Shown here: positions 29,872 through 62,649 of the stretch, one piece after another
Layout: the number at the start of each line of letters is the position of its first letter
How positions within the stretch are numbered: the stretch's first letter is position 1
From: an archaeon
GTDB taxonomy: Archaea; Nanobdellota; Nanobdellia; Woesearchaeales; UBA9642
Assembly: GCA_020057295.1 (NCBI GenBank)
Contig: JAGVGF010000006.1
Location: 128,001-192,000 of the forward strand
Reading direction: 5' to 3'
Length of the DNA stretch: 64,000 nucleotides
Notes under the pieces: model-generated
What the model saw: only the letters and a program-made list of their open reading frames with translations
Told to the model about the DNA's origin: nothing
Databases searched by the model: none
Made by a program: the position numbers and the translations under genes

Positions 29872-29875
29872 ACGC

Positions 29876-30850: not shown

Positions 30851-30893
30851 TATTAAAAAAACATACAAAAGTATAAGCAGAAAAATTAGGTGA

Positions 30894-46218: not shown

Positions 46219-46229
46219 AAGGTGAAATT

Positions 46230-46880: not shown

Positions 46881-46882
46881 TC

Positions 46883-47464
46883 ATGGCAACATTTATTGAT
46901 ATAAGCATTATTAAGAACTTCACAACAATATTTACGTTCTTATTAGTGTTTGTTATAATCTACGGCTTATTAGAAATGTTTAACGTATTTGGTGAAGGCC
47001 GTAAGAGTATTCATGCAATTATTGCTATGGTTATCGCATTCTTAGTCAGTGTATCTAGTGGTGTATTGACTGTTATTCAAACATTCACACCGTGGTTTGT
47101 AATATTAATTTTATTTATATTTTTTATACTTTTTGCTGTTAGAATGTTTGGTGTTAGTGGTGAGAGTATTACTAAGGCATTTCATAACAAGAGCGCAATA
47201 CTTACATGGGTAATAATAATTACTGTACTAATATTATTATTCTCTTTAGGAGCAGGTTTTGGTCAACAAACTTTAGACCAAGGTCAAACAGGCGGTAAAG
47301 TTACTAGTGTTGCTACTGGTAATCAGACTGCGCCAACTGATAGTGGTGATTTTAGTCAGAATTTATATAATACTATCTATCATCCTAAAGTTTTAGGATT
47401 AATATTGGTAATGTTGATAGTTGTTGTTTCTATGTTATTATTGACGGATGCTGAAGGACCATAA
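46883..47464 (+). CDS. Membrane protein, paralog 3
   Basis: FTFLLVFVIIYGLL...HAIIAMV. Confidence 0.8.
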   Translation: MATFIDISIIKNFTTIFTFLLVFVIIYGLLEMFNVFGEGRKSIHAIIAMVIAFLVSVSSGVLTVIQTFTPWFVILILFIFFILFAVRMFGVSGESITKAFHNKSAILTWVIIITVLILLFSLGAGFGQQTLDQGQTGGKVTSVATGNQTAPTDSGDFSQNLYNTIYHPKVLGLILVMLIVVVSMLLLTDAEGP

Positions 47465-47468
47465 GAAT

Positions 47469-49571
47469 TTATTTTTGTAAAATCATTTTTATTGTTTTTA
47501 CGTATGGTTTTTCTGTTCCTGTTGTTGGATTTACTGTCATTCTTAATAAATATAATCCGCTGCTTAATCCATTCCCATTTATTTGTTCTGTATAAGTTCC
47601 ACTTGATTGTATTCCTTCATCTATTTCTCTAACTAATTGTCCTAATGTATTATATAATCCTAATTTTACATGAGCATTCTGCTTTAGAGAGTATTGAATA
47701 TTTGTTGTTGGATTAAATGGATTAGGATAATTTTGTAATAATTCATAATTTTTAGGAACTGACTCGTCTATTCTAACACTTGTTAATGTTTTTGCTGTTA
47801 CTATCTTGCTAGTGTTTGATGCTACAACAGTATCTATGCCATCAGTAACTTTTCCAGTAAAAATATATGTTGTATTAGGTTCCAAAATATTTGATGGAAT
47901 TGTTAATTTTGTATTTTTTGTAATTATTACTGAATCTATTTTTCCACCCTTCATATTAATAATATATCTTAGCGTATCTGTATCTACTGAAGGATTCCAA
48001 TCTCTAACAACATCTACATTTGCATACTTTACAGTATCTGATACTTCCTTGAAACTCCAAGCAGATGGAGGAATATTTGCTGTTGTGAATGTTACAACGT
48101 TGGTTGCGTTTACTGTATCTATTCCATCTGTAACTTTTCCTTCGAGAGTGTATGAAGTGTTTGGTTTTAATAATGTTGAATCTATTAATACATTTCCAGA
48201 ATTATTTTTTACTTTGAAAATGAGATCTAAATCCGGACCAAAAACTCTTATTAGTCCTTTTAATGAATCACCGTCTGCATCTAAGGAAAAATTTGGTGTA
48301 TATATCACAGGTAGTTTCCCATTGGTAAATGTTGCTTTTGAATTATTTAATGGACTTATAATTGTAATAGGTTCTGGTGAAGTGTTCTTTGTTGTAAATT
48401 TTACAAATGGCGACCATGCACCTGCTCCTTTTGATCCAATGGTTCTTGTTCTTGTATAATATGTTGTATGTGCGTTACCGTTGAATGTTTTTGTTGTTCT
48501 GTCCATTGTTGAATCTTCTAATAATGGAACTGTTGTCGTATCCTTGAAGATTTGTAAATGATATCTTACTGCATTACTGTCTTTACTAGCAATAATATCT
48601 ACTAATTTATCTACAGTAGAATTATTAGATGGACTTGTTATAAGTCCAGAATTTGGAATTACAGGTTCGACAAAATCAGTCATATTGCCCATGAATAAAT
48701 CTTGTTGTTTGTCTCTCTTACGGAAATGTTGATCTAATGTTAAAGCAAGATAACTTCCATCAATTGGTTGCCATCCAGGATTAGACTGAACCGAAGGATC
48801 TGAATTAGATGGAACGGGTAAAGGAGGTATAGCAGGCCATCCATTATATGCCTTAACTATTTCGTGATTTATTCTCCAAATTTGAGAAGCTCCAATTTGA
48901 GAAGAGCCTTTGAATACTATACGATTTATATTATAATTTATACTACTAAAATTAGTTCCGGCATTCATAAATATCGTAAATGTTGTATCAGGGCTAGAAT
49001 TACTTGAAACAAAATTATACAAAGAATATCCTGTACTTCTCTCCATCGTATCTTTTGCAGCAATAATAGCCAAACTGTCTAGTCTTACTAATGTACTATC
49101 ACTTGAAAAATTTTCTATTCTTGTATTTACAGGATTTATTTGAGACCAGTGCGGAGGATCTTTATTTTTTGATACGTCATAAAGTCTCATCCACCATTCT
49201 GACACTAATGAATCTTTTCCCCACGGTCCCTCTCTTATTGTTTTTGGTGTTGCAAGCCATATTGTTGTATCGTTTGTAATATTCATATTTTGTTCAAATG
49301 TTTTATAATCTTGATGAGATAGTTTTACTGAATGTGTTCCTCCAGGTATTTTTGTAAAAGAAGAGTTACCATTCACGTCAGAAGATCTTGTATATTGTCC
49401 CTTATCTAAAGAAACAACGGCACCAGAAATAGGATTTCCTGCTCCATGTTTTAACTCTGTAACTTTAAAATTTACGTTAAATGTTTGTGCGAGAACGTTT
49501 GTTGTAAACATAGCTCCAGCTAATAAAGATAATCCTAATATCTTCGTCTTACGAACAATATTTTCAAGCAT
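47469..49571 (-). CDS. Secreted protein: carboxypeptidase-regulatory-like domain, metzincin-like domain, Fn3/Ig repeats, T9SS type A C-terminal sorting domain
   Basis: Signal peptide ending VLA-Q; CTD YELLQNYPNPFNPTTNIQY...YNTLGQLV...LSSGLYLLRM...KMILQK. Confidence 0.85.
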   Translation of the reverse strand: MLENIVRKTKILGLSLLAGAMFTTNVLAQTFNVNFKVTELKHGAGNPISGAVVSLDKGQYTRSSDVNGNSSFTKIPGGTHSVKLSHQDYKTFEQNMNITNDTTIWLATPKTIREGPWGKDSLVSEWWMRLYDVSKNKDPPHWSQINPVNTRIENFSSDSTLVRLDSLAIIAAKDTMERSTGYSLYNFVSSNSSPDTTFTIFMNAGTNFSSINYNINRIVFKGSSQIGASQIWRINHEIVKAYNGWPAIPPLPVPSNSDPSVQSNPGWQPIDGSYLALTLDQHFRKRDKQQDLFMGNMTDFVEPVIPNSGLITSPSNNSTVDKLVDIIASKDSNAVRYHLQIFKDTTTVPLLEDSTMDRTTKTFNGNAHTTYYTRTRTIGSKGAGAWSPFVKFTTKNTSPEPITIISPLNNSKATFTNGKLPVIYTPNFSLDADGDSLKGLIRVFGPDLDLIFKVKNNSGNVLIDSTLLKPNTSYTLEGKVTDGIDTVNATNVVTFTTANIPPSAWSFKEVSDTVKYANVDVVRDWNPSVDTDTLRYIINMKGGKIDSVIITKNTKLTIPSNILEPNTTYIFTGKVTDGIDTVVASNTSKIVTAKTLTSVRIDESVPKNYELLQNYPNPFNPTTNIQYSLKQNAHVKLGLYNTLGQLVREIDEGIQSSGTYTEQINGNGLSSGLYLLRMTVNPTTGTEKPYVKTIKMILQK

Positions 49572-49633
49572 AATATACCATAGAATAATAGGTTTATAAA
49601 TTTTACGCTTGTTACCACCTAACAGTTACTAAT

Positions 49634-52600
49634 TTACTTAACACTTAAGTTAAATTGATCATCATATATTTCGTAATTATTATACCAACTATTTAGACCA
49701 CAATAATTAGTAAATTTACTCTTACAAAGAGCATTAGTTCCACATAATTGAGTGGCAATTGATGGAAAATTTTGAAGAGGATATAAACAATCCGTCTTAA
49801 ATTGCCATTTATTAGTTGTTTTATTAAAAATTGCAGGTTGATCGCATTTCTTAGTCAAATTATTAGATGCAACAAGATTATTCATAATAGACCTATAACC
49901 TTCATCGCACTTCACAGGAGAAGGTTTGCATGAATCGGAAGACGAATAATAATCATATTTTTTATCAGGACACGCAGGGTAAATACCGCCTTTATCGCCT
50001 TGACCTTTCAAAGTTAATACTTCCTTAATTTTTTTGAATTCTCCTCCAGATATCGCAACGTACTTGTTTACACCTAAATCATAAGTCATTGTCTGTCCCT
50101 CTTTCAAACAAACAGGACATCCTGTAACATTATCTTGAACAATAGTTCCATTGACACATTCCGCATGCAATTTCATTTTAGAAGACACACCATGTTCAAT
50201 ATTACATAAAGCAGCATTAATTTTGTTTGGATCTAAAATAACGGAGTCAGTCGTAGTTCTCTCACGATCAATACCATCTGCATCTATTATTTTGGTAGTA
50301 TCAGGGAATTGATGTATTCCACAATCTGGATCCGCTGATGTTCCATTAACCTTTGCACATATAGGTGTACTCGAGAAATCATCAGGACAGAAACCATCCA
50401 TATTAATACTACAAGCTCTATCTTCAACTGTAGCATCAGGATAAACTATAGCCAAATCAGAAGGAGGACTACAAGTAACTTGTAAAACAAAAGATCTTTC
50501 TGATGATGCTTTTATCCATTCTTTACCATTCCATCTTGCACAATATCCATACTCTCCCTCAACAGAATACTTTACATTTGCGACACCTGTGGATTTACAG
50601 TATTTTAATAATGATTTTTGATCGGCACAAATATTTAATTGTGCTGTAGATCTAGTAGTTTTGTTGTCAATAGCAGACACCTTAGGGCTTACAGCAGTTA
50701 CAGCTCCAGAACCAACACAAGTAACAGAATTAATATCAGCACCGTATTTTAGATTTTGTCCTCCGACATAACTCAAACAAGGAGTTCCTACACCAATTTT
50801 TACTCCAACAATTGCATCACCATAACCTAAATAACTACAGAATTGTTTTAACGTGAAAGAATCACCACAAACAGGATATCTATTATTATCACCATTATAC
50901 AATTTAAGTAAATCGTTGCTCGTAGAATAAGTTTGTTTACTATTAGATAAAGGTCTTCCAATTTTATAATTATTACATATAACTCCTCCTGCACCTAACT
51001 GATTAACTAGGAGAGAAGGCCATTCTGTAAATCCTTTAAGAACAGCACCATATTGATTGTATGTAGTAGCTGCATTATTACAAGTATCAATTATTATTTT
51101 ATAATTTCCTGAACTACCATACCATATATTACTTCTAAAAACACCCGATCCTGGTAATCCATCACGGAATGCAGCCTGCATAGCATATAATCTGTTGGCA
51201 ACAAAATGTTCTGTAGTCTCTCCAGGACTTAATGAAACGGAATAAGTTATCGAACCTCTCTGATTACCATCAACAGTTGCTCCATCTTTTACTCTGTGAT
51301 TACCACCAGCAAACATTTCACCATCATAACTAATTTTGAAATCTGGATCATCAACGCTACCAATATCAACTTGTAAATTCGATACAAGATCTTGACATGT
51401 TGTTGCTGGACCATGATAATCGACAGTTATTCCAATTGCACCATTAGTATCACAAGAATATACAGCTCCATATGCACTGTTAGTAACACCAGGTATTATA
51501 TTACATCTATTACCACCAGTTAATGTTACACCTTCAATTTTACAATCAATTTTTTTACATGCATTACTACACGCATCAGCAAAATCTTCACTATTACCAT
51601 CATCACATTCTTCTGCACCTTGTACTCTTCCATCACCACAACTCTGACAAGTTCCTTGTCCAGTAATACTATTACAATCAGAACTACATGTTGGTACACC
51701 TATGTAAGCACCATAATAATTAGTACCAGCAGCACTCTTTCCACCATAAAATTCTGAACAAGTGTGTGATCCAGGATTTGTTCCGTCACAAGTCTCTGTT
51801 CCTTCAACAGCATTATTACCACAATAAGAACATGTTCCTCGAGTAATTGCACAAGTACTACTACAAGAAGGAGTTCCATGATTCATATCACGATCAACAT
51901 TATTATACACGATACTATATTCAGAGCAAGTATGCGAACCAATATTTGTTTTATCACATTCTTCAGTACCTTCAATAATATTATTCATACATAAAGAACA
52001 AGTTCCTTTCGTTAAAGCACAATTAGTACACGATGGAGTTCCATGATTCAAATTCCAGTAAGCATTGTTAAACAATGTAGTGAATTCATCACAACTATAA
52101 CCACCAAGATTTGAACCATCACACTGCTCACTTCCTTCAACAATATTATTCATACACAAAGAACATGATCCTAAAGTTATTTGACAATTACCATTACATC
52201 CTGGAGTTCCATGATTCAAATTCCAGTCAGCATTGTTAAACAATGTAGTAAAATAGTCACATGAATATCCTTCATCTAAATTAATCACTGAACCATCGCA
52301 TTGTTCATAAACTCCATAAGCATTAGGCCATTGAAGAGAACCATCGCCGCATCGTGTACAGTCTGGATCAGATATCCCGTGACTTGCACATATTCCTGAC
52401 GATATTCCGCAACTTGATCCATAATTATTCGGACATATTCCATCACTGGCTCCGCAAGTATAAATATTATAATTTCCAGAAGAAACATCATATAATTTTA
52501 CACCATAACCGTGTGTTCCAGAATAACATGTTCCAGAACATATTGGAGATATTGATCCTGAGCAAACATAAGATGTAGTCCAGCTACCACATTCATATAC

Positions 52601-53497
52601 ACATCCAGTTCCAGAGCCGTTCCATAATGCAAATTGTTCTAAAGAGTTTAAAGGTTTTGCATCGAAAGATTCTCCATTAATAAATTCGCGATTATTCACC
52701 GAAATATCAGATAAAGTTATTTTTGGACAAATCCAGGAACTGCAATATTGTGAAGTCTGACAGACACCGGTACAATAATAATTATCTGGAGCATCGCAAG
52801 TCATTTCTGCATTTGTGTTACATGAACCTTCACAATAACAATTTCTATTATTTAATTCTCCTCCTTGTTTACTATCACACATAGTTGTTGGTGAACTATA
52901 TGTTACAGCGTAAACTTTATTATTGCCTGGAGTGTTATCACAAATGTAGTTGTAACATCCACCATTAGCTACGACATACATTCCGTCTTTGTAAGACACT
53001 GTACCATAAGAACTACATGCAATGTTTTGGCATTGACCATTTACACAATTCTGATTTGCTCCACACACATTTCCACACGATCCACAATTAGTAACAGTAT
53101 TTATTGGAGTCTCACACCCATCAGATGCTATTTGATTACAATTTTTTTGTGTATTACGCGCACAAGGTTCGCATCCGCTAGAATCATCACAGTAAGAATT
53201 TATGCCACAATTTTGACTAAAATAACACGATACGCCACCAGTCCACCTAGCAGTGTTATATCCTGTACTCGTACAACCAAGAAAATCAATAGGATTACAA
53301 CTAGGATAAGAAACGGGATTTTTAAACACACATGCTCCACCAGTCCATGTACACAAACTATTCATTAAACATCCTGAATATGATTCGTGTGGACAAGGTG
53401 GACGCGCATAAACAATGTTTGATAATATTATTACTAAAAATATTAGTAGAACAATGGTGATTCCTTTCCAAATATAACTTCGCCTACTCATCCTCAT
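49634..53497 (-). CDS. Large Cys-rich secreted protein (1287 aa) with Myxococcus-type Cys-rich repeats
   Basis: Signal peptide; repeated CG(D/N)xxx(E/Q)GxExCD units, CDDGN, DGxCP...DPDC. Confidence 0.85.
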   Translation of the reverse strand: MRMSRRSYIWKGITIVLLIFLVIILSNIVYARPPCPHESYSGCLMNSLCTWTGGACVFKNPVSYPSCNPIDFLGCTSTGYNTARWTGGVSCYFSQNCGINSYCDDSSGCEPCARNTQKNCNQIASDGCETPINTVTNCGSCGNVCGANQNCVNGQCQNIACSSYGTVSYKDGMYVVANGGCYNYICDNTPGNNKVYAVTYSSPTTMCDSKQGGELNNRNCYCEGSCNTNAEMTCDAPDNYYCTGVCQTSQYCSSWICPKITLSDISVNNREFINGESFDAKPLNSLEQFALWNGSGTGCVYECGSWTTSYVCSGSISPICSGTCYSGTHGYGVKLYDVSSGNYNIYTCGASDGICPNNYGSSCGISSGICASHGISDPDCTRCGDGSLQWPNAYGVYEQCDGSVINLDEGYSCDYFTTLFNNADWNLNHGTPGCNGNCQITLGSCSLCMNNIVEGSEQCDGSNLGGYSCDEFTTLFNNAYWNLNHGTPSCTNCALTKGTCSLCMNNIIEGTEECDKTNIGSHTCSEYSIVYNNVDRDMNHGTPSCSSTCAITRGTCSYCGNNAVEGTETCDGTNPGSHTCSEFYGGKSAAGTNYYGAYIGVPTCSSDCNSITGQGTCQSCGDGRVQGAEECDDGNSEDFADACSNACKKIDCKIEGVTLTGGNRCNIIPGVTNSAYGAVYSCDTNGAIGITVDYHGPATTCQDLVSNLQVDIGSVDDPDFKISYDGEMFAGGNHRVKDGATVDGNQRGSITYSVSLSPGETTEHFVANRLYAMQAAFRDGLPGSGVFRSNIWYGSSGNYKIIIDTCNNAATTYNQYGAVLKGFTEWPSLLVNQLGAGGVICNNYKIGRPLSNSKQTYSTSNDLLKLYNGDNNRYPVCGDSFTLKQFCSYLGYGDAIVGVKIGVGTPCLSYVGGQNLKYGADINSVTCVGSGAVTAVSPKVSAIDNKTTRSTAQLNICADQKSLLKYCKSTGVANVKYSVEGEYGYCARWNGKEWIKASSERSFVLQVTCSPPSDLAIVYPDATVEDRACSINMDGFCPDDFSSTPICAKVNGTSADPDCGIHQFPDTTKIIDADGIDRERTTTDSVILDPNKINAALCNIEHGVSSKMKLHAECVNGTIVQDNVTGCPVCLKEGQTMTYDLGVNKYVAISGGEFKKIKEVLTLKGQGDKGGIYPACPDKKYDYYSSSDSCKPSPVKCDEGYRSIMNNLVASNNLTKKCDQPAIFNKTTNKWQFKTDCLYPLQNFPSIATQLCGTNALCKSKFTNYCGLNSWYNNYEIYDDQFNLSVK

Positions 53498-53641
53498 TTT
53501 TTACCTTTTAACTCACCTTTTAGTAATACACGACAATGTTATTTAAATATATTGCGTTTTTTAAACTTAAATTTAGATAATATAAAAACTAAGAATAGTA
53601 TCTGTTAATATATCTATTATGAAAATATATAATAAGAAAAA

Positions 53642-55441
53642 TTATTTTTTCAAAATCATCTTTATGGTTTTCATGTATGGTTTTTCTGTTCCTGTTGTCG
53701 GATTTGCAATCATTCTCAATAAATATACACCGCTACTTAATCCGTTTCCATCTACTTGTTCTGTATACATTCCAGAATTTTGTATTCCTTTATCTACTTC
53801 TCTGACTAATTGTCCTAATGTGTTATATAATCCTAATGTTACATGAGCATTCTGCTTTAATGAATATCTAACATTTGTCGTCGGATTAAAAGGATTAGGA
53901 GAGTTTTGTGAAAGTTCGAACGATTTAGTATTATTTTTTAATATTAATTCTATATTGTTTGAATATTTAAATTGTCCATCATTATCTATTTGTTTTAATC
54001 TATATTCTACTGTATCAGAAATATTTGTTTCTACAAATTCATATGTTCTTGATACGGATGAACTTCCTGAACCTTGAACAAATCCTACTCTTTTCCAATC
54101 TTTAATTTTTCTATCAACATTTTTTTCTACATCAAAGCCATAATTATTTACTTCTGTTGCAGTAGTCCATTTAAGACGAGCAATATTATCAATATATGAT
54201 CCTATAAACGATACTAATTCTACTGGAAGAGGAGTTGAATTAGTAGTATTTGACCATTCACTAACTCCTGCTTCGTTTTTTGCTCTAACTCTTACAAAAT
54301 ATTTTGTATTTGGAGAAGCAGTAAAATTTTTATCTGTTCTTCTAAGTAAAGAATCATTTACTGAAAAAGTTGTGAATGATGAATCTGTGGATATTTGTAA
54401 ATGATATGTTTCCGTACCAAATGAATTTGTCCATTTAACAAGCATTTCTAAAGGGACTCCTGTTGAATTATTAACTGGTTGTGTTATAGATACTGAAGAT
54501 GGAATTGTTGGACTAACATAATCTTCTATATTTAATAAGAATGCGTTTTGTTCTCCTCTAACTTTTGCCTTATGATGTCTCTCAGCAGTTTTTGTTAATA
54601 TATTATCATCTAATGTAAATTCTGGAGGATGTCCGTTCGGATCCATATTACTTGAAAATGTTGTTACATAACTTTTATCATCTCCAAATCCTGCAACTTC
54701 GTGTTGTAAGATAGGAATTGTTGGACCAGGAGAAACATTTGCACTGATAATATTTATTAAACCATTTCCATCATCGAATATAGTAGTTTGATTGTTATAT
54801 GGACTGTTAAAAGTTATTAGCACTCCACCATTATCTACTACATCCGCTGAATCTGTTGTTAATATATATCTTTTTTCTTTCAATATAAATTCTATGCTTG
54901 ATGTGTCGGAATCTTGCCATTGCGTTAATCCATTTCCTAATGCTTTTCTAAATATTAACGAATCGTATGATGTTGCGTTGCTTAAGAATGTTTTTTTAGG
55001 GTAATCTGCAAATAGAGGGTCTTTATTTTTTGGAGCACTACTTGAATATAGATCTATCATTTTCTCAGCTGTAATTATTCCTGTTCCTTTAGTTACAGTT
55101 TGTGTTGTTTCTGGAAGCGTAAAATTTAATGTCTTATTGCTTGTAATATTTACTGCAGTTTCAAAAAAATCCATATATCCTTTTTTACTGATTCTTACAT
55201 TATGTGTTCCTGATTGTATTCCTGCAATGGAGTAATTTCCGTTAACATCTGTTTCTGCAGTAATGGCACTTGAATCCACATATAATTTTACATTTTCTAT
55301 TGGAACTCCTGTTGAATCTTTTAATGAAGTAATTTTTCCTTGTAAAGTGTAGTTTTGAGCTGAAGCTAATCCTGATACAAATAAAACAGGTAAAACTATT
55401 TTACGGAATAATCTACCTACAATATTATCGAGTTTTAGCAT
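53642..55441 (-). CDS. Secreted protein with T9SS type A C-terminal sorting domain (paralog of 47469-49571)
   Basis: Signal peptide ending ASA-Q; PLPVELVSF...WTTATEVNNYGF...YRLKQIDNDG Ig-like module; CTD FELSQNSPNPFNPTT...KMILKK. Confidence 0.87.
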   Translation of the reverse strand: MLKLDNIVGRLFRKIVLPVLFVSGLASAQNYTLQGKITSLKDSTGVPIENVKLYVDSSAITAETDVNGNYSIAGIQSGTHNVRISKKGYMDFFETAVNITSNKTLNFTLPETTQTVTKGTGIITAEKMIDLYSSSAPKNKDPLFADYPKKTFLSNATSYDSLIFRKALGNGLTQWQDSDTSSIEFILKEKRYILTTDSADVVDNGGVLITFNSPYNNQTTIFDDGNGLINIISANVSPGPTIPILQHEVAGFGDDKSYVTTFSSNMDPNGHPPEFTLDDNILTKTAERHHKAKVRGEQNAFLLNIEDYVSPTIPSSVSITQPVNNSTGVPLEMLVKWTNSFGTETYHLQISTDSSFTTFSVNDSLLRRTDKNFTASPNTKYFVRVRAKNEAGVSEWSNTTNSTPLPVELVSFIGSYIDNIARLKWTTATEVNNYGFDVEKNVDRKIKDWKRVGFVQGSGSSSVSRTYEFVETNISDTVEYRLKQIDNDGQFKYSNNIELILKNNTKSFELSQNSPNPFNPTTNVRYSLKQNAHVTLGLYNTLGQLVREVDKGIQNSGMYTEQVDGNGLSSGVYLLRMIANPTTGTEKPYMKTIKMILKK

Positions 55442-55469
55442 AGTATATTATGATAAGCAGTATTTATAA

Positions 55470-55502
55470 AGTTTTTGGTTGTAGTCACTCAATAGTGACT
55501 AT
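55470..55502 (-). promoter_or_regulatory. Promoter-proximal palindrome upstream of the T9SS-CTD gene
   Basis: TAGTCACT-caat-AGTGACTA just upstream of the TTTATAAA box; a degenerate equivalent lies upstream of the paralog (~49610-49633). Confidence 0.5.
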
Positions 55503-55529
55503 TATTAAGAATTTTTTCTAATAAAATAA

Positions 55530-58500
55530 CTAGTTTACAACAATATTTTTCTTTCCATAAATAAGATATTTTCCACTCGTACTATTAAACAAATTAGAAA
55601 TTCCACAATAATAACCTATTTTATCAGTCACAACAATATCAGGGAATGTACAATTAGTAATAATACTATTTACAATAAGATCATATTTCGGATCTTCAAC
55701 AATGTTACCAGGAATTACAGCTGCAGTAGGATTTATTAAACAATTGCGTACACATTCATTAGATAAAGTAACTTTTTTCTTATCTAAACCACATTTTTTA
55801 GCACATTTTTTAACAGTATCAGCACTAGAACCATTAACTCTCTCATCACCAGTTATATTCACAAATAAAGGTAACTTAAATAACGCGTTAAGCAATTTAG
55901 AACAATTATTTCCTGTATTGAAATCCGTACCTACATCACAACTATTTAAAGCCGGAAAACAATATCCGTCTGTCAAACCATATCTGAATCCTTGAGGACA
56001 AAGAGTTTTATTAGCTGAACATATAACTGTATTTCCATCGTAATTAGTTACAGCAGGATTATCCAAATTTAAACTTGCTACTAGACATGCAGCTTGACCA
56101 CTAGAATTTTTATACACACAATTAGACGCGCCAGCGCATATCTTATGAACAGGAGGAACTGGTAATGCACATGATTGACCTAAAACAGTTAGTCCAAGTT
56201 TATCACGAACTTCTGCGCATGTCATCCACGTATGATGTGCAGAATCTATAGTGAAATTTACACCAGAGTTTGCAACAGGAATATTTTGTGTATGTGGATA
56301 GAATTTATCATCAACAGTATTCAAAGTTTTTGCCGCGTTTGTAAAGAATGCTGCTCCGCCAGGAGGAATTACACCCATTAATTTTCCTGCACATTTAGCA
56401 GGAATTGTACCATTTAAAGTATAATTAAATTCTATAGAAGTACTTCCTGCGCCAATACTTAAATCTCCCATTTCGCTACTATTTAATCCAATCACAGCTC
56501 CTTGACCGCCAATGTTACATGCACCATCAGTACTATTAATATCAACTTGTGCAAATCTTGCAGCAGAACAATCACCTGTAAAATTAATTACTACACGAAC
56601 TTTATCTTTTGGAGCACACACTCCCCTATCACAACCAGTACCAGGATACACTGCAACATTTGTAATAGAACATAATTGACAATATACACATCCAGGATTA
56701 CTACTATCACAACTCTCACCATATTGAGGTTGAGTAATTCCATCACCACATCGTGCAGCATCTTGAGTCCATTTCGGCCAATCTATAGTGCATGTATCAA
56801 GACATGGTGCATGACCAGGATAAGGCTGTCCAGCTTTTACGACATGAGTTACACCGAGTGTATCGCATATTTCTCGACCATTATTATTATGATCTCCGTA
56901 TATTTTATAATAATTAGTTCCGCCAGCATTAAGTCCTCGTTGAAAATCATTTTCGGTTAAATCATAAAATGTCCTATCAAGATTAGAAATATCATATGTT
57001 TGAGTTTCATCATTACACCAACTATCATATTTAAAATCACAATGTAACGTAGCCATAAAATAATTAGGATCAGTATCACTAAGAGGAACAACATAAAAAT
57101 CAGGATAATCTGGAACCCACCATCTATTAGACCAAAATTTTGAATGGTTTAAATATCCCCAAAAGCCAGTAAACTGTCTCCATTCTATGTGTGCTTGATA
57201 CCCGCTTTCACAATACGTTTCAGTGCCATCACAAAGAGTTCCATTTTGTGCAAGCCAAGGAAAAGGACCTCCATTAAGATTAGTAGCTCCTTCAGAAATA
57301 GTCTGTGCAATAGCATCTCCACATCTAGTCCTAAGAGTACAATTAGGCGAGCATCCACTACCATCTTGACCAATCATGTTGTCAGGATCATACTCGTCAT
57401 AAGGATCATTTGCTCTTCTTGAGCATGTTACTGATGTTGTAATATTCTTACTATTATTTGTTATCCATTGTAATCCATTCCATAATTTACATGATGCTAC
57501 AGAACCTGAATGAGTCGCAGCAGCTTCATTTGAAGTTGCATAATTATTATCTATACAATATTTTACTCTGCTTGGTTTATCATCACATATAACAACGCGA
57601 GATCCGTCTGTTGCATTTGGAGAAGGATATGTTTTACTTCCACTAGTAGTATTATAATCGCATTGTTCGCCTGCATCTAATTTTCCATCACCACATATTG
57701 GACCAATAATAGTTATATTTGAACATGTAGTATTACAATAGGAACAAACAGTATTAGGTGCAGCAACACATGCTGTGTTAGTATTAAATCCTCCTAAATC
57801 ACATTGTTCTGTAATACTATTATGATTAGGAGTTTGTTTCATACCATCACCACAGATTGACCAATGACATTTGTAACAATCAGCAGTATCAGTAGGACCA
57901 ACATCACATTGTTCTCCATATATTGTATCTACAAAATAATTTCCACAAGAGCCATTAGTTAAAGTTATACCTTTAGTTAGTGTTGTAGAATAATAATTAG
58001 ATTGTTTGTTTAAAGGAATTGGTAAACCACTATAAGCTTCTGAAGCGACTAGTGTTAAAGTTTGTCCATTACATCCAACGGGTATTGAAGGAATTTTATC
58101 GCTAAGTAAATTTGTAGGAGAAGTAAAACTACTAAGATTAGGATTGAAGATTAATAATATCATTTTAGAAATAACATTAGTAGAATCTGGAGTGTTATAA
58201 TTCATAACACAAGAACCGTATGCAGATGCGAAATCTATCTGTACACTTTTTGCTTTAGAACAATCTCCAGTATAATTTACAGTAATATTTAATTTATTAT
58301 CAGAATTACATGCACTATTAACAATATCACATCCATTACCTGGTTTAATATCTATACCAGTAATTTTGCAAGTTCCACACGCTCCATCGCCCATACAGAA
58401 TGTATTTGCTGGACATTGTGCATCACTAGTACACGCAACACATTGCCGGAATATGCATGTAGGCTTCAAAGAATTTTTAACTACACAATCAGTATTAGTA

Positions 58501-61500
58501 TCACACTCTATATTATATAAGTATATAGGATTTATCTGTGTACCAGCATAATACGCAAGAATGGTTGGAGGAAGAGTTGCTCCAATACCAAAATATTCCG
58601 TGTCTATTTTTTCAGAAACATCTTTAGAAGCTAGAACTTTTTTGGAAGGATATGAACCAAGTAAATCATCTTCAGTAATGTCTAATAATCTTTTTGATAA
58701 GTCATTAACAGGTAAAGATTTTACAACAACTCCACCATCATATCTAAATGATATTCCTGTAATATTATTTATTACTTTATTACCACAAATCAAAGGAAGT
58801 GTTGGTACTGTATAAGTAAAAGACGTAGTAGTTATAAGAGGAGTATTTAATAATGTATTAGATCCTGTCATGCCTTTCATCGAGCCACTACTAAATTGTA
58901 TCTTACAAGAATTATCAGAACTTGCAGCATCCACTTGTATTGCTTCTGTTAATGCACAATTGCCAGTATATCTAACATTAACAGTCCAAGTAGTACCAAC
59001 ATTACATGCATTAGCACTACTGCTACCACATGATGAAGGAGTAATTGATGCACTTAATATTGTACAATCTTTAATTTGACAAGTATTAGTACATCCGACA
59101 CTAGTATCTGGAATATTATTGGAGCAAGTAACAGGATATACATAAGCGGCAATCAGAGTATTCCATCCCCCAACATATTTGATACATGGCGTTCCAAAAG
59201 TTATTGGTGTTGCGCCAACAGTTGCAGTATTAAATCCATTCTCCAAACAGAATCTTGTCAATGAAGTAGTATCTCCACATACACCATAATAGTTAGCACC
59301 ATTATTATTTGAACGTTGCATAGATGCAGTAGTACTAAACGTAACAGATGATGGAGGTATATAATCACATTGCTCGCCAGAATCTGTAATAGTATTACCA
59401 CATGTTGTACATCGTGAAACATCATATCCACTACAACCAGTATTACATCCTAATGTTCCTATCCATGTTCTACCATCATTCTTTACGCCCGTACAAGTCA
59501 TAGAATTCAGCGTTGTACCATCACATGTTTCTGAAAATTCTTTAACATTATTTCCACAATATCCACATTTACTATAATCAAAATTACAAGAATTAGTACA
59601 TGAAACAACTCCATTATTGCAGTTCACAGCATTTCCGTTAGCATTAGAACATGAATTGTATTGACTGCAAACTTTTCCATTAATATCAGAACCGTCACAT
59701 ATTTCAGCAGGTTCTCTTATACCATTACTACAATAACCACAACCAGCAGAATTTAGTTTACATCCACCACAAATTAAATTTCCGTTGTTGGCCGGAACAT
59801 CAGCACCATTTCCTTGTGGATCGCTATACACATTATAGTTTGCACAAGTTTTTCCATAAGCAGTTGAACCGTCACATTCATCTCCTCTATTTGGATCGAT
59901 TATATTATCACCACAAATACTCGGAACCCATGAACATCCTAAAGTAGTACATTTAGCTCCACGATACGCGCTACAATCAATTGTACCATCACAATAATTT
60001 GGATTAATAGCAGGTTCAACAGTGTAGCAATTGAGAGGTGCATCTGCACTACAATCATATCCGGACCATGAAAGAGAAGGTATTTCAAATTCGCCACAAC
60101 TTCTAGTTGATGGACCTTTACATATATATTCTAATTTACAAGAACTACATCCATCACCGACAACAGAATTTCCATCATCACATTCTTCTCCATCTAAAAC
60201 GTTAACTACACCATCACCACAAACATTTGGTTGCCAACCACAACCAGCAGCAGTACAAGCAGAATTAGACTGCAAAGAAGAATCTTTACACTCAATTATA
60301 CCGCCACAACTATGATAACATTCACTCCAAAACTGATCAGCATAGCAACCAGCAGGAGCAGTATCACATTCAGTCTCACAATTATCAACAAAATAACCAT
60401 TACAACTTTGAGTTGATGAACCTTTACAAACGTACGTCTTTAAACAACTACTTGAACATCCATCGTAATTGTTTAGATTACCATCATCACACTGTTCTCC
60501 AGCAGCAACATTCATCACACTATCACCACAAACATTTGGTTGCCAAGTACAACCAGCAGCAGTACAAGCAGAATTAGACTGCAAAGAAGAATCCTTACAA
60601 TTAATTGTGCCACCACAAATATTTGGATCATTGCCTGATTCAACAGTAGAGCAATCAGTAGGAGCATTTGCACCACAATCATAACCAGACCATGAAAGAG
60701 AAGGTATTGCAAAAATATCACAACTTCCAGTTGATGAACCTTTACAGACATAATCTAATGCTATACGACAAGTTCCTTGTACAAAAGCTGAACAGTCAGT
60801 TCTACATCCAGGAGTGCCTATATATTCTGCACCATAAATATTAGCACAAGTGGAACCACTAGTACCATCACAAATTTCAAAACCATTTCGTATATTATCA
60901 CCACAATGTTGTGTAGTAGTACATGCATTTAAAGTACAAGAAGCAGAACAACTTTTAGAACCGATGTATCCATTAGTAATACAAATAGTTCCACTACCAT
61001 CACATTGCTCATTACCATTTCTTACGTTATCACCACAAGATTCAGAAGGAACACAAGTTCCTGACCAAGAACAAGATCCAGTACATGATTCAGTTCCCGC
61101 ATAACCTGCTGCAGTAGTACATGCTCGAGTATTGCCATCGCATTGCTCAGGACCAATCGTTATTGAATCTCCGCAATAATATGGAGTAACACAATTATTC
61201 CAGCTACACCAAAGGTCGCAAGATTTAGAGCCAGGATAACCGTTAACAAAACATGTTTCAGTATTACTATCACATTGTTCATTACCATTTCTTACGTTAT
61301 CTCCACAAGATTCATAAGAATAACATTGATCATACCCGTTACACAAACCACCACATCGTTGAGTTCCAGAATAACCTGCTACGGTTGAACAAGATACAGT
61401 ATCACCATCACATAATTCACGACCATTCCTCCAGCCGTCACCGCACATTTCTGTAGAATAACAATTAGAATAGCCTGTGCACAAGAAACAACTTTGAGTG

Positions 61501-61811
61501 CCAGTATAGCCGTTAAAATCTGTACAAGATTGAGAACCGCCATCGCAAGTTTCATAACCATTCTTTTTACCATCACCACAAGATTCACAAAATCCACAAC
61601 CAGCCCACCGACAACTAGAACAATAATTTAGGCCATTATATCCCCCACCACAGGAACAAGAATTAGGCCAATTTTGATCACACTGCTCTCCAGGATCCAA
61701 AATAGTATCACCACAATATGCGGAAACATTAGAAGAAATAATAATTAATAGAAAAGTGCTTAATATAAAAAATATTGTTAGTGAAAATAACGTTTTATTC
61801 TTCATCATCAT
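55530..61811 (-). CDS. Giant Cys-rich secreted protein (2093 aa) with multiple repeat families
   Basis: Signal peptide; many CGDxxxNGxExCD repeats, GEQCDDGN repeats, three copies of an Ig-like module (C.I...I.PG.GC...VNYTGDCS...QVD). Confidence 0.87.
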   Translation of the reverse strand: MMMKNKTLFSLTIFFILSTFLLIIISSNVSAYCGDTILDPGEQCDQNWPNSCSCGGGYNGLNYCSSCRWAGCGFCESCGDGKKNGYETCDGGSQSCTDFNGYTGTQSCFLCTGYSNCYSTEMCGDGWRNGRELCDGDTVSCSTVAGYSGTQRCGGLCNGYDQCYSYESCGDNVRNGNEQCDSNTETCFVNGYPGSKSCDLWCSWNNCVTPYYCGDSITIGPEQCDGNTRACTTAAGYAGTESCTGSCSWSGTCVPSESCGDNVRNGNEQCDGSGTICITNGYIGSKSCSASCTLNACTTTQHCGDNIRNGFEICDGTSGSTCANIYGAEYIGTPGCRTDCSAFVQGTCRIALDYVCKGSSTGSCDIFAIPSLSWSGYDCGANAPTDCSTVESGNDPNICGGTINCKDSSLQSNSACTAAGCTWQPNVCGDSVMNVAAGEQCDDGNLNNYDGCSSSCLKTYVCKGSSTQSCNGYFVDNCETECDTAPAGCYADQFWSECYHSCGGIIECKDSSLQSNSACTAAGCGWQPNVCGDGVVNVLDGEECDDGNSVVGDGCSSCKLEYICKGPSTRSCGEFEIPSLSWSGYDCSADAPLNCYTVEPAINPNYCDGTIDCSAYRGAKCTTLGCSWVPSICGDNIIDPNRGDECDGSTAYGKTCANYNVYSDPQGNGADVPANNGNLICGGCKLNSAGCGYCSNGIREPAEICDGSDINGKVCSQYNSCSNANGNAVNCNNGVVSCTNSCNFDYSKCGYCGNNVKEFSETCDGTTLNSMTCTGVKNDGRTWIGTLGCNTGCSGYDVSRCTTCGNTITDSGEQCDYIPPSSVTFSTTASMQRSNNNGANYYGVCGDTTSLTRFCLENGFNTATVGATPITFGTPCIKYVGGWNTLIAAYVYPVTCSNNIPDTSVGCTNTCQIKDCTILSASITPSSCGSSSANACNVGTTWTVNVRYTGNCALTEAIQVDAASSDNSCKIQFSSGSMKGMTGSNTLLNTPLITTTSFTYTVPTLPLICGNKVINNITGISFRYDGGVVVKSLPVNDLSKRLLDITEDDLLGSYPSKKVLASKDVSEKIDTEYFGIGATLPPTILAYYAGTQINPIYLYNIECDTNTDCVVKNSLKPTCIFRQCVACTSDAQCPANTFCMGDGACGTCKITGIDIKPGNGCDIVNSACNSDNKLNITVNYTGDCSKAKSVQIDFASAYGSCVMNYNTPDSTNVISKMILLIFNPNLSSFTSPTNLLSDKIPSIPVGCNGQTLTLVASEAYSGLPIPLNKQSNYYSTTLTKGITLTNGSCGNYFVDTIYGEQCDVGPTDTADCYKCHWSICGDGMKQTPNHNSITEQCDLGGFNTNTACVAAPNTVCSYCNTTCSNITIIGPICGDGKLDAGEQCDYNTTSGSKTYPSPNATDGSRVVICDDKPSRVKYCIDNNYATSNEAAATHSGSVASCKLWNGLQWITNNSKNITTSVTCSRRANDPYDEYDPDNMIGQDGSGCSPNCTLRTRCGDAIAQTISEGATNLNGGPFPWLAQNGTLCDGTETYCESGYQAHIEWRQFTGFWGYLNHSKFWSNRWWVPDYPDFYVVPLSDTDPNYFMATLHCDFKYDSWCNDETQTYDISNLDRTFYDLTENDFQRGLNAGGTNYYKIYGDHNNNGREICDTLGVTHVVKAGQPYPGHAPCLDTCTIDWPKWTQDAARCGDGITQPQYGESCDSSNPGCVYCQLCSITNVAVYPGTGCDRGVCAPKDKVRVVINFTGDCSAARFAQVDINSTDGACNIGGQGAVIGLNSSEMGDLSIGAGSTSIEFNYTLNGTIPAKCAGKLMGVIPPGGAAFFTNAAKTLNTVDDKFYPHTQNIPVANSGVNFTIDSAHHTWMTCAEVRDKLGLTVLGQSCALPVPPVHKICAGASNCVYKNSSGQAACLVASLNLDNPAVTNYDGNTVICSANKTLCPQGFRYGLTDGYCFPALNSCDVGTDFNTGNNCSKLLNALFKLPLFVNITGDERVNGSSADTVKKCAKKCGLDKKKVTLSNECVRNCLINPTAAVIPGNIVEDPKYDLIVNSIITNCTFPDIVVTDKIGYYCGISNLFNSTSGKYLIYGKKNIVVN
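60213..60593 (-). repeat. Near-identical internal DNA repeat in the giant Cys-rich gene
   Basis: CAACCAGCAGCAGTACAAGCAGAATTAGACTGCAAAGAAGAATC exact at 60241 and 60550, with matching flank ATCACCACAAACATTTGGTTGCCAA. Confidence 0.85.
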
Positions 61812-62469
61812 TACTCTTGACGACTTTTGATTTTGTCGTAGAAGATTTTTTCTCAGATTTAAATTTTTGTGTAATAGAATTTAATTCATTTACATTATCA
61901 ATGAATGTTGGTAAAACTTTTCCAAATACTTTTTCCATTGCTTGCAATTGTGCACCGACGTCAATCATATGTTTATCATAATCTCCAATCTTTCCAATAA
62001 TTGCATTGTGTAATTTATCGAATTGTGCTTGTAAGTCTGTCATCTGTTGTTCCATTGATGCTAACTTATTATCTGCTTTTTGTTTCCATTCAATTACTTT
62101 ATTTATGTCTTTTACAAGTTCATTCCATTTCTCGTCTATGATTGCTTCTACTAATTCTTCGGGCGATCCTTGTAATGAACTCATTGAAACCCCTTGTGAA
62201 GGCATAGATTGTATTGGTGGTAATTGATTACCAAGTTGTTGCATTTGTGGACTTAATTGAGAATTTGATTGTTCGCCTGCTGCTTGTGGTGAACCCATTT
62301 CTGATTGTGATATTGCATCAAATATCTGGCTAGAAGTATAACCATCTCTTTGTAATGTTTGTATAATCTGATTATTAGTGTAGCCTTGCTGCTTCATTGC
62401 AGAAACTTGTCCAATCGGAATATCTGGACCAGCAGCGAGGTCAGATTTGTTAGACTTAAATATACCCAT
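61795..62469 (-). CDS. Coiled-coil protein with Gln-rich linker, overlapping the start of the giant Cys-rich gene
   Basis: N-terminal GYTNNQIIQTLQRDGY, then EELVEAIIDEKW and heptad-rich C-terminal half. Confidence 0.8.
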   Translation of the reverse strand: MGIFKSNKSDLAAGPDIPIGQVSAMKQQGYTNNQIIQTLQRDGYTSSQIFDAISQSEMGSPQAAGEQSNSQLSPQMQQLGNQLPPIQSMPSQGVSMSSLQGSPEELVEAIIDEKWNELVKDINKVIEWKQKADNKLASMEQQMTDLQAQFDKLHNAIIGKIGDYDKHMIDVGAQLQAMEKVFGKVLPTFIDNVNELNSITQKFKSEKKSSTTKSKVVKSNDDEE

Positions 62470-62649
62470 AACACCCTCTTTATATTATTAACGCACAATT
62501 ACTATATATAATATGCATTTATACCAATAACATGTTTATAAACTTTACGCTCAACTATATATAGTATATTATTACAACATTATCCGAGTTCATCGTAACA
62601 TTTTTAAACAATATATGTTTTCGTGAAATATTATTGTGGGGTAAATTTT

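What the first reader, a model, noticed from the sequence alone, without database searches (positions are those of the whole stretch)
47469..62469. Archaeal surface locus alternating giant Cys-rich proteins with bacterial T9SS-cargo-like proteins
Seen: minus-strand order is coiled-coil (224 aa), Cys-rich 2093 aa, T9SS-CTD 599 aa, Cys-rich 1287 aa, T9SS-CTD 700 aa, divergent from secY and converging on three paralogous membrane genes. Both CTD proteins have a Sec signal cleaved before Gln and a QNxPNPFNPTT...LGQLV...LSSGxY...KMIL tail, and each has a TTTATAAA box ~29 nt before the ATG like other leaderless genes here. Established: this tail is the type A CTD (TIGR04183-type) recognised by the T9SS of FCB-group bacteria, and archaea have no T9SS. 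Inference: the archaeon expresses T9SS-cargo-like proteins, possibly to dock on or exploit a bacterial host's T9SS (PorV/SprA) together with disulfide-rich adhesins. That would be a host-recognition system and would hint at an FCB bacterial partner.
Basis: partly seen in the sequence, partly recalled or inferred. Interest (0 to 1): 0.88.

Follow-up and report, generated by a model that had tools for sequence, protein, structure and literature searches.

The report
Orphan T9SS cargo genes in Woesearchaeota
A tiny archaeon that has no type IX secretion system carries bacterial-type cargo proteins of that system, and their bacterial sorting tail is the best-conserved part, which suggests the tail still binds something, possibly a bacterial partner's surface.

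Summary
The minus strand carries, in order, a 224-aa protein, Cys-rich proteins of 2093 and 1287 aa (8.5% and 7.6% Cys), and, alternating with them, 599-aa and 700-aa proteins. The tails of these two score above the curated cut-offs of TIGR04183 and PF18962.

The genome is a 1.2-Mb Woesearchaeota-like archaeon. It has five such proteins on four contigs. SprA, PorV, PorU, GldK/L/M and Omp85 were not found. The locus recurs in relatives' assemblies, so it is not chimeric.

New here:
- The 599-aa protein is a full-length homologue of an Ignavibacteriota T9SS cargo (36% over 589 aa). The genes are therefore whole-gene imports, and they now sit behind native leaderless TATA promoters.
- The tail is the most constrained part of the protein (dN/dS 0.04, against 0.24-0.54 for the other domains).
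- A fold model docks the tail on an Ignavibacteriota PorV (score 0.91, best control 0.35). This shows likeness, not binding.

I read the genes as domesticated bacterial cargo whose tail is kept as a binding module, not as a secretion signal for the archaeon's own cell. Docking on a bacterial partner's T9SS is the boldest reading still open (about 0.3). No evidence of a partner was obtained.

The parts
47469..49571 (-). 700-aa T9SS-cargo-like protein (P0001): Sec signal ending A|Q, CarboxypepD_reg-like domain, 'HE' alpha/beta domain, Ig/FN3-like repeats, type A CTD
47472..47756 (-). type A CTD of P0001 (residues 606-700)
   Evidence: PF18962 37.4 bits, TIGR04183 32.6 bits. dN/dS 0.038 against its orthologue. 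Docked on PorV in the model.
48606..49250 (-). 'HE' passenger domain of P0001 (about residues 108-322), with an invariant His-Glu; no known family
49593..49600 (-). TTTATAAA box starting 29 nt before the ATG of P0001
49634..53497 (-). 1287-aa secreted Cys-rich protein (P0003; 98 Cys, 7.6%) with myxo_disulf_rpt-type repeats
   Evidence: orthologue next to P0006 in L138
53642..55441 (-). 599-aa T9SS-cargo-like protein (P0002), a full-length homologue of an Ignavibacteriota cargo
53645..53929 (-). type A CTD of P0002 (residues 505-599); 82.5% DNA identity to the CTD of P0001, with a sharp boundary
54482..55129 (-). 'HE' passenger domain of P0002 (residues 105-320); modelled with pLDDT above 90
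55463..55470 (-). TTTATAAA box starting 29 nt before the ATG of P0002
55530..61811 (-). 2093-aa secreted Cys-rich protein (P0004; 178 Cys, 8.5%) with myxo_disulf_rpt repeats
   Evidence: TIGR02232 42.2 bits, cut-off 20.8
61795..62469 (-). 224-aa protein without signal peptide or family; overlaps the start of P0004 by 17 nt (probable operon)
45631..47464 (+). three paralogous membrane genes that bound the locus; same neighbours in relatives
62623..63999 (+). secY (archaeal/Sec61 type), divergent boundary gene

Best explanation
The locus is a fast-evolving island of secreted or surface proteins that is conserved across one Woesearchaeota (DPANN) genus. It consists of a two-gene module, a giant disulfide-rich protein followed by a T9SS-cargo-like protein, present here as a tandem duplicate.

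The cargo-like genes were imported whole from Ignavibacteriota-like FCB bacteria. The imported unit comprises a signal peptide with Gln at +1, a CarboxypepD_reg domain, a rare 'HE' alpha/beta domain, an FN3 domain and a type A CTD. The genes now have the host genome's base composition and its leaderless TATA promoters.

The archaeal Sec system exports them (inferred). The cell has no outer membrane machinery and no T9SS, so the CTD cannot act as a sorting signal for the cell's own secretion. It is nevertheless the most strongly conserved part of the protein and keeps the motifs that contact PorV. It is therefore retained as a working binding module (inferred). Its partner is not identified. 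The candidates are a PorV-type barrel on a T9SS-bearing bacterium, or a component encoded by the archaeon itself.

Shown: domain identity, no T9SS parts found, the horizontal origin, native promoters, synteny, and the selection pattern. Inferred: export, binding, and the partner.
For: Archaeal host:
- TopoVI-B, ABCE1/RLI and Sec61-type SecY lie in the window.
- The closest named TopoVI-B relatives are 'Candidatus Woesearchaeota' at 85-87% identity.
- The genome has 6 contigs, all 30.6-31.6% GC, and is 100% complete with 0.46% contamination.

CTD proteins in the genome and its relatives:
- CTD HMMs score over their cut-offs.
- There are 5 CTD proteins on 4 of 6 contigs.
- 29 of 201 sampled genomes of the phylum score over the cut-off, including 6 of the 7 other sampled genomes of the genus at E <= 0.001.

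T9SS parts:
- In G000 no match at E <= 0.1 for SprA, PorV, GldM, GldK or Omp85; GldL gave one 12-bit match.
- PorU matches only through the CTDs themselves.
- SprA and PorV each score over the cut-off in 0 of 201 sampled genomes of the phylum.
- Controls: SprA matched in 3 of 3 Ignavibacteriota genomes over the cut-off; PorV matched in 3 of 3, over the cut-off in 2; Omp85 in 7 control diderms.

Horizontal origin:
- P0002 is 36% identical (210/589, E 6e-100) to a 595-aa Ignavibacteriota protein of the same architecture.
- 21 of 22 scanned members of the HE-domain family carry PF18962.
- 73 of the 80 best CTD loci bear FCB-group names.
- A|Q signal peptides fit the Q-rule: Bacteroidetes mean 71%, Ignavibacterium album 77% (PMC5837995, passages).

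Native expression signals: TATA box at -29.

Synteny: the same locus next to AspRS and the three membrane paralogues is seen in G208, G189 and contig L138.

Constraint: CTD dN/dS 0.038 (12 synonymous and 2 non-synonymous differences; dS 0.23), against 0.24-0.54 in the four other regions.

Interface: 13 of the 20 columns invariant in the five CTDs lie among the 36 predicted PorV-contact residues (Fisher p 0.008).
Against: - No expression or protein data exist; no RNA holder was listed.
- Signal peptides were judged by eye.
- The searches for GldK, GldL and GldM had no positive control genome.
- The low dN of the CTD may partly reflect gene conversion between the paralogues. The two CTDs are 82.5% identical in DNA with a sharp boundary, and dS in the CTD (0.23) is lower than in the other regions (0.35-0.62).
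- Conserved motifs could serve the fold alone.
- The CTD tree is unresolved: 7 of 104 branches are supported, and one origin is not excluded. The number and direction of transfers therefore rest on parsimony.
- The HE domain was found in only 1 of 401 sampled archaeal genomes (G000 itself) and 2 of 201 Ignavibacteriota genomes, so the donor lineage is only roughly known.
- The dN/dS result rests on one orthologue pair.
Confidence: 0.6

Rival explanations
1. Docking in trans. The exported proteins use their CTD to bind the extracellular loops of PorV, or the PorU/V/Q/Z attachment complex, of a T9SS-bearing FCB bacterium such as an Ignavibacteriota. This tethers the archaeon or its proteins to that cell. 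The disulfide-rich giants act as co-adhesins.
For: - Complex model of the P0001 CTD with an Ignavibacteriota PorV: ipSAE 0.91 in 3 of 3 runs, best of 3 controls 0.35. The mark was reached by 58 of 80 solved complexes and 2 of 110 mismatched pairs. Partner pLDDT was 89 and the runs agreed in at least 96% of contacts.
- The contacts fall on motifs B, D and E. A review says an AlphaFold PorV/RgpB-CTD model places these motifs against PorV's extracellular loops, and that PorU and PorZ keep their CTDs to stay bound to PorV and PorQ at the surface (PMC10202324, passages).
- CTDs are not interchangeable between two Bacteroidota species (PMC11285876, abstract). That would explain the tight constraint.
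- No PorV-family gene was found in G000.
- Gene exchange with Ignavibacteriota is documented.
Against: - The pass may come from likeness to known PorV-CTD complexes, and the PorV used is a stand-in.
- My own alignments were used, so the calibration counts hold only roughly.
- There is no evidence of co-occurrence, contact or a host.
- In the known pathway PorV is thought to meet the CTD inside the translocon (PMC10202324). Binding of a CTD from outside the cell has not been reported in what I read.
- Retention of the motifs follows from homology alone.
Confidence: 0.28
2. Partner in the same cell. The CTD binds something the archaeon itself encodes and so holds the proteins on the archaeal surface. 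Candidates are the neighbouring Cys-rich giants, an S-layer component, or one of the bacterial-OMP-like proteins with A|Q signal peptides.
For: - The CTD gene and Cys-rich giants are neighbours in G000, in G189 and in contig L138, three assemblies of this genus or a close relative.
- G000 has four OMP-like genes with A|Q signals and aromatic C-termini. One lies 22 nt downstream of the C4 CTD gene.
- One of them (P0042) resembles TorF/MipA-type barrel clusters by language-model features, with scores of 0.97-0.98.
- A closed relative (G009) has a PorV/PorQ-like gene (NF033709, 51.8 bits, below the cut-off of 90) next to a Tat-signal caspase-like gene.
Against: - No Omp85/BamA was found that could insert barrels.
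- The OMP-like proteins show no likeness to PorV (hhalign probability 0.2-0.3).
- A PorV/PorQ-family match occurred in only 1 of 201 sampled genomes and not in G000.
- The barrel fold is unconfirmed, because the model failed at pLDDT 37.5.
- Neighbouring genes alone are weak evidence of binding.
Confidence: 0.2
3. Generic cap. The CTD is merely a stable Ig-like beta-sandwich carried along with the imported gene. It has no specific partner, and its conservation reflects folding needs and gene conversion.
For: - The tail also matches FlgD_ig weakly. By sequence, the nearest solved chains are the PorU CTD (E 0.023) and FlgD.
- DNA of the two CTDs is 82.5% identical with a sharp edge, as gene conversion would leave.
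- Some archaeal CTDs elsewhere in the phylum have degraded motifs.
Against: - dN/dS of 0.038 with 12 synonymous changes is about six to fourteen times lower than in the four other regions of the same protein, which include the folded CarboxypepD_reg, HE and FN3 domains.
- Invariant residues are enriched at the predicted interface.
- 21 of 22 scanned family members keep the CTD.
Confidence: 0.18
4. Artefact. Bacterial sequence was mis-assembled or mis-binned into an archaeal genome.
For: None found. Junctions near 53600 and 55500 were not bridged by any independent record that I saw.
Against: - Five CTD genes lie on four long contigs (124-268 kb) of uniform GC.
- They carry native -29 TATA boxes.
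- The same junctions appear in L138, G208 and G189.
- A 552-nt contig of another run bridges 47180-47731.
Confidence: 0.02

Closest known systems
Type A CTD cargo proteins of the T9SS in Bacteroidota and Ignavibacteriota (TIGR04183 / PF18962)
   Same: Sec signal with Gln at +1. A C-terminal tail of about 90 aa that scores over both curated cut-offs. Motifs B, D and E are present. One protein is a full-length homologue of an Ignavibacteriota cargo.
   Different: The host is an archaeon. SprA, PorV, PorU, GldK/L/M and Omp85 were not found, so the tail cannot direct secretion in the same cell. The genes sit behind archaeal leaderless promoters.
PorU and PorZ, which keep their CTD to stay bound to PorV and PorQ on the cell surface (PMC10202324, passages)
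   Same: An uncleaved CTD used as a non-covalent anchor. That is the role I infer for the archaeal tails.
   Different: In those cases the CTD and the barrel are made by the same bacterium. Here no PorV-family gene was found in the genome.
[quoted passage not shown]
   Same: A T9SS-type tail annotated on an archaeal extracellular protein, with transcript counts.
   Different: Another phylum and another passenger domain. It appears only as an annotation in a table, with no analysis of origin, selection or missing machinery in the passage I saw.
Myxococcal cysteine-rich acidic repeat proteins (TIGR02232, DUF4215)
   Same: P0004 (42.2 bits) and P0003 (21.2 bits) pass the TIGR02232 cut-off of 20.8.
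   Different: The repeats cover only part of the giants. The large C-terminal regions have no family and are shared only with relatives in the genus.

Membership tests
T9SS type A C-terminal sorting domain (TIGR04183 / PF18962) | HMM score over the curated cut-off | tested here: met
   P0001: 32.6 bits (cut-off 23) and 37.4 bits (cut-off 27). P0002: 28.7 and 30.6 bits.
T9SS type A C-terminal sorting domain (TIGR04183 / PF18962) | Domain lies at the extreme C-terminus of a protein with an N-terminal Sec signal | tested here: met
   The domain ends 12-14 residues before the stop codon. Signal peptides were read by eye; no predictor was run.
T9SS type A C-terminal sorting domain (TIGR04183 / PF18962) | Conserved motifs B (PNPF), D (SGxY) and E (K-x-hydrophobic..K at the end); motif names from PMC10202324 | tested here: met
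   Invariant in all five CTDs of the genome.
T9SS type A C-terminal sorting domain (TIGR04183 / PF18962) | Seven-stranded Ig-like beta-sandwich (PMC11285876, abstract) | tested here: inconclusive
   The model has seven strands between residues 509 and 597, with block-mean pLDDT 59-89. The topology was not compared with a solved CTD, because the fold search was swamped by FN3 hits.
T9SS cargo secreted by the cell's own T9SS | SprA/Sov translocon in the same genome | tested here: not met
   No match at E <= 0.1. Over the cut-off in 0 of 201 sampled genomes of the phylum. Control: 3 of 3 Ignavibacteriota genomes.
T9SS cargo secreted by the cell's own T9SS | PorV shuttle and PorU sortase in the same genome | tested here: not met
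   PorV and the PorV/PorQ family: none. PorU matches only over the CTDs. PorV control: matched in 3 of 3 genomes, over the cut-off in 2.
T9SS cargo secreted by the cell's own T9SS | PorK/L/M (GldK/L/M) motor and ring | tested here: not met
   GldM and GldK: none. GldL: one 12-bit match at E 0.07. No positive control genome was searched for these three. GldN was not searched.
T9SS cargo secreted by the cell's own T9SS | Outer membrane with BAM (Omp85) | tested here: not met
   PF01103: none in G000; the control matched in 7 diderm genomes.
Zincin metalloprotease (considered for the 'HE' domain) | HExxH zinc-binding motif and a family HMM hit | tested here: not met
   The motif reads HEVAG or HEIVK, and only H and E are invariant. 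No Pfam, NCBIfam or PDB sequence hit.
Cysteine-rich acidic repeat (TIGR02232) | HMM score over the curated cut-off | tested here: met
   P0004 42.2 bits and P0003 21.2 bits, cut-off 20.8. Pfam DUF4215 scores below its cut-off.

The most novel reading that the evidence does not exclude
Woesearchaeota of this genus use imported T9SS sorting tails as grappling hooks. The Sec-exported proteins dock through their CTD onto PorV or the PorU/V/Q/Z attachment complex on the outside of an Ignavibacteriota-like bacterium. PorU might even attach them covalently. The tail's tight conservation tracks the partner's PorV. This would be the first molecular handle on a bacterial host or partner for a DPANN archaeon, and the first use of a secretion signal as an inter-domain adhesin.
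Probability: 0.28. Interest if true: 0.92.

Novelty: new variant of a known kind. Interest (0 to 1): 0.74.

Why it matters
The hosts and the attachment molecules of most DPANN archaea are unknown. Here a bacterial sorting tail, which should be useless in a cell without the matching secretion system, is kept under stronger selection than the rest of its protein. It also still fits a bacterial PorV in a model. This turns a vague question (whom do Woesearchaeota touch, and how?) into bench tests with a 95-residue domain. It also shows that a hit to the T9SS tail HMM does not imply a T9SS. Such hits occur over the cut-off in 29 of 201 sampled genomes of this archaeal phylum, while SprA and PorV score over the cut-off in 0 of 201. 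I found no paper treating this. My searches were: 'type IX secretion' with 'DPANN' (0 papers); T9SS, archaea and DPANN terms; 'C-terminal sorting domain' with Woesearchaeota, Pacearchaeota and Nanoarchaeota; 'Por secretion system' with 'archaea' (63 papers, 15 listed, one relevant table row); and TIGR04183, PF18962 or Por_Secre_tail with archaea. Supplements were closed and might hold such annotations.

Tried and rejected
- Structure of the OMP-like protein P0042 from a 4-row alignment: mean pLDDT 37.5, unusable.
- Fold search of the full P0002 model against the PDB: dominated by tandem FN3 hits, so nothing was learned about the HE domain.
- PDB sequence search with the HE-domain profile: 0 hits at E <= 10.
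- ESM Atlas on the HE domain: no usable hit.
- CTD tree of 107 rows. Eighteen of the 40 fetched archaeal CTD loci were dropped because tblastn with my five CTDs did not find them. The 80 bacterial rows were preselected as best matches. The tree is unresolved and was used only to say that origins cannot be counted.
- P0042 family: found in 2 of 151 genomes of the order (G000 and G626) and 0 of 151 Ignavibacteriota genomes, the latter without a positive control.
- hhalign of PorV against the 436-aa and 447-aa OMP-like proteins: probability 0.2-0.3.
- Metagenome scan with the HE profile: 1 locus only.
- The look-up of sequencing runs: one DNA run with a share of 0.06; no RNA holder listed.
- Read laying on that run gave relatives' contigs. 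No listed piece bridges 49600, 53600 or 55500, and two bins had no cover.
- Chimeric assembly was rejected (see rivals).
- A zincin protease reading of the HE domain was rejected because there is no HExxH motif.
- The listing of cluster members gave no organism names.


Full report
What is there. The 700-aa protein (P0001) and the 599-aa protein (P0002) each begin with a basic and hydrophobic leader ending ..VLA|QT or ..ASA|QN. Each ends with QN(Y/S)PNPFNPTTN...LGQLVRE...LSSG(L/V)YLLRM...KTIKMIL(Q/K)K. Both tails pass the curated cut-offs of PF18962 (37.4 and 30.6 bits, cut-off 27) and TIGR04183 (32.6 and 28.7 bits, cut-off 23). Both N-termini match CarboxypepD_reg-type domains, over the cut-off only in P0002. 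The 1287-aa and 2093-aa proteins have signal peptides, 98 and 178 cysteines (7.6% and 8.5%, against a genome median of 0.9% over 418 ORFs of 300 aa or more), and repeats that pass TIGR02232. P0001 and P0002 are paralogues, and so are the two giants. The 'alternation' is therefore a tandem duplicate of a two-gene module.

Whose genome it is. The window holds TopoVI-B, ABCE1/RLI and a Sec61-type SecY. The nearest named TopoVI-B relatives, at 85-87% identity, are 'Candidatus Woesearchaeota'. The assembly (G000) has 1.20 Mb in 6 contigs of 30.6-31.6% GC, with 100% completeness and 0.46% contamination. It encodes five TIGR04183 tails on four contigs, all over the cut-off. Four of the five follow an A|Q leader and one follows A|D.

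Not an artefact. TTTATAAA starts 29 nt before both ATGs. This box starts at -29 or -30 in 39 of 701 long ORFs, against 0-4 at every other position from -80 to -8. The genes therefore sit behind the genome's own leaderless promoter type. The same neighbourhood (AspRS, three paralogous membrane genes, the CTD protein, and where the contig reaches far enough the Cys-rich giants) appears in two further genomes of the genus. In G208 the CTD gene is inverted, an extra gene is inserted and the contig ends inside the gene. In G189 a 1037-aa CTD protein is followed by giants of 1067 and 1453 aa. The neighbourhood also appears in an independent metagenome contig, L138. There an orthologue of the 1287-aa giant, a 62-nt spacer, a 75%-identical orthologue of P0001 and the three membrane genes follow in the window's order. 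A 552-nt contig of another run bridges 47180-47731. The junctions near 53600 and 55500 were not independently bridged.

No T9SS. In G000 there was no match at E <= 0.1 to SprA, PorV, GldM, GldK or Omp85, and GldL gave one 12-bit match. PorU matched only over the CTDs themselves. The PorV/PorQ family model also found nothing at E <= 1. The method works. SprA was found in 3 of 3 Ignavibacteriota genomes, all over the cut-off. PorV was matched in 3 of 3, over the cut-off in 2. Omp85 was found in 7 control diderms. GldK/L/M had no positive control. Across 201 sampled genomes of the phylum, the CTD model matched 37 (29 over the cut-off). SprA and PorV were over the cut-off in 0 of 201.

Where the genes came from. 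The CTD profile found 592 confirmed loci in the species-representative genomes. Of the best 80, 73 bear FCB-group names (Ignavibacteriota, Calditrichota, Bacteroidota, Balneolota, Chlorobiota, KSB1, Zixibacteria, Marinimicrobia, Kryptoniota). Five are unnamed bacteria, one is labelled Bacillota and one Heimdallarchaeota. Identities are 36-56%. That these phyla form the FCB group is recalled knowledge.

The region between the CarboxypepD_reg and FN3 domains, the 'HE' domain of about 195 residues, has no Pfam, NCBIfam or PDB relative. It is rare: 26 representatives among 1.84 billion proteins. Of the 22 members I scanned, leaving out five short ones, 21 carry PF18962. It was found in 1 of 401 sampled archaeal genomes (G000 only; G208 was not in that sample) and in 2 of 201 Ignavibacteriota genomes. 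One of the latter encodes a 595-aa protein with the same architecture from signal peptide (..FG|QN) to CTD. It is 36% identical to P0002 over 589 residues (E 6e-100). That is closer than P0002 is to its own neighbour P0001 outside the tail (29%).

Gln at +1 fits the 'Q-rule' reported for Bacteroidetes (mean 71%) and Ignavibacterium album (77%) (PMC5837995, passages). I conclude that whole genes were transferred from Ignavibacteriota-like bacteria and then ameliorated to the host's composition. The CTD tree cannot say how many transfers occurred. It has 7 of 104 supported branches, and the archaeal label needs 13 changes against 24 when shuffled, but a single origin is not excluded.

Is the tail still doing something? 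Between the two paralogues the tails are 81% identical in protein and 82.5% in DNA (235/285). The similarity ends sharply at the tail's start, which points to module exchange or gene conversion. Between the orthologues P0001 and P0006, Nei-Gojobori estimates by region give dN/dS of 0.24 (leader plus CarboxypepD_reg), 0.31 (HE), 0.26 (FN3), 0.54 (middle repeats) and 0.038 for the CTD. The CTD has 93 of 95 residues identical, with 12 synonymous and 2 non-synonymous differences and a dS of 0.23. The tail is thus the most constrained part of the protein in a lineage without a T9SS. The caveats are that this is one pair, and that the somewhat lower dS in the tail may reflect conversion.

The model of P0002 is confident for residues 30-320 (pLDDT above 90 in most blocks). 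It gives a seven-strand C-terminal domain with block-mean pLDDT of 59-89, and it is poor for residues 408-508.

PorV docking. The score was 0.91 in three runs and the best of three controls was 0.35. The mark was reached by 58 of 80 solved complexes and 2 of 110 mismatched pairs. Partner pLDDT was 89 and the runs agreed in at least 96% of contacts. Contacts fall on tail residues 7-15 (LQNYPNPF), 35-44, 62-68 (GNGLSSG) and 88-95. Of the 20 columns invariant in the genome's five tails, 13 are among the 36 contact residues (p 0.008). This agrees with a review's account that motifs B, D and E face PorV's extracellular loops in an AlphaFold model, and that PorU and PorZ keep their CTDs to stay bound to PorV and PorQ (PMC10202324, passages). 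The pass shows that the tail still looks like a PorV ligand. It may come from memory of like complexes. It says nothing about what happens in nature.

Reading. The shown facts are a true type A CTD, no T9SS parts found, horizontal origin, native promoters, conserved synteny and strong constraint on the tail. From these I infer that the proteins are exported by Sec and that the tail is retained as a binding module rather than as a secretion signal for the same cell (confidence 0.6). The partner is open. Docking on a T9SS-bearing bacterium gets about 0.28, an archaeon-encoded partner about 0.2, and a purely structural cap about 0.18. An artefact is nearly excluded.

Results that bear on the second option:
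- G000 encodes four small proteins with A|Q leaders and aromatic, OMP-like C-termini, and one lies directly downstream of the C4 CTD gene.
- One of these proteins resembles TorF/MipA-type barrels by language-model features, but its fold model failed.
- None of the four resembles PorV.
- A closed relative, G009, which has four CTD hits, carries a sub-threshold PorV/PorQ-family gene in an apparent operon with a Tat-signal, weakly caspase-like gene. This arrangement recalls porU-porV, but it is the only such case in the 201 sampled genomes.

Novelty. Type A CTDs and their machinery are well known. A Por-tail annotation on an archaeal peptidase appears in one table of an MBG-D paper. I found no paper that treats T9SS tails in DPANN archaea, their origin or their constraint; supplements were closed.

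Noticed in passing
G000:C1:51199-51936 (+), C1:154159-155007 (-), C2:72364-73707 (-), C4:170910-172220 (-); all outside the window: Four proteins of 245-447 aa with Bacteroidetes-style A|Q signal peptides and bacterial OMP-like aromatic C-termini (..SKQF, ..YTFK, ..IYKF, ..GYIF), in an archaeon in which Omp85 was not found. The C4 gene lies 22 nt downstream of a CTD gene. The 245-aa protein resembles TorF/MipA-type barrel clusters by language-model features (0.97-0.98). Its fold model failed, and it has only three close relatives.
   Followed up: partly
L144:4850-5758 (-) and L144:5758-6855 (-), that is G009:C1 around 237850-239855: A closed 1.3-Mb relative with four CTD hits encodes a 303-aa PorV/PorQ-family-like protein (NF033709, 51.8 bits, cut-off 90). 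Its start overlaps the end of a 366-aa gene with a Tat signal and a weak caspase-domain match (E 0.0047). The arrangement recalls porU-porV. It is the only such match in the 201 sampled genomes.
   Followed up: partly
window 41902-43662 (-): The aspartyl-tRNA synthetase carries a GAD domain (PF02938, 1.3e-12). From memory this is typical of the bacterial type, so it may be another bacterial import. It is conserved next to the locus in G208, G189 and L138.
   Followed up: no
G000:C5:14508-18401 (-), next to the CTD gene C5:13771-14499: A 1297-aa lipobox protein with a HELGGHGFGANH zinc-protease-like motif lies directly upstream of another small CTD protein.
   Followed up: no
window 47521-48041 and 53773-54293 (run X1): Depth spikes (135 and 44, against 0-11 elsewhere) with many loose ends at 47697-47736. 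Many unrelated contigs of that run share the short stretch encoding QNYPNPFNP, so T9SS-type tails of this motif are abundant in that community.
   Followed up: no
L010:10815-11657 (-), G208: In G208 a 280-aa gene is inserted between the third membrane paralogue and the CTD gene, and the CTD gene is inverted relative to the window. The locus is rearranged within the genus.
   Followed up: no
window 21563-23713 (-), 28792-33874 (+): A HypF carbamoyltransferase and a 2-oxoacid dehydrogenase E2 (with neighbouring ORFs that may be E1 and E3) lie in a 1.2-Mb DPANN genome.
   Followed up: no
window 7353-8924 (-): A 523-aa PKD/CARDB/DUF11 surface protein, another secreted adhesin-like gene in the window.
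   Followed up: no
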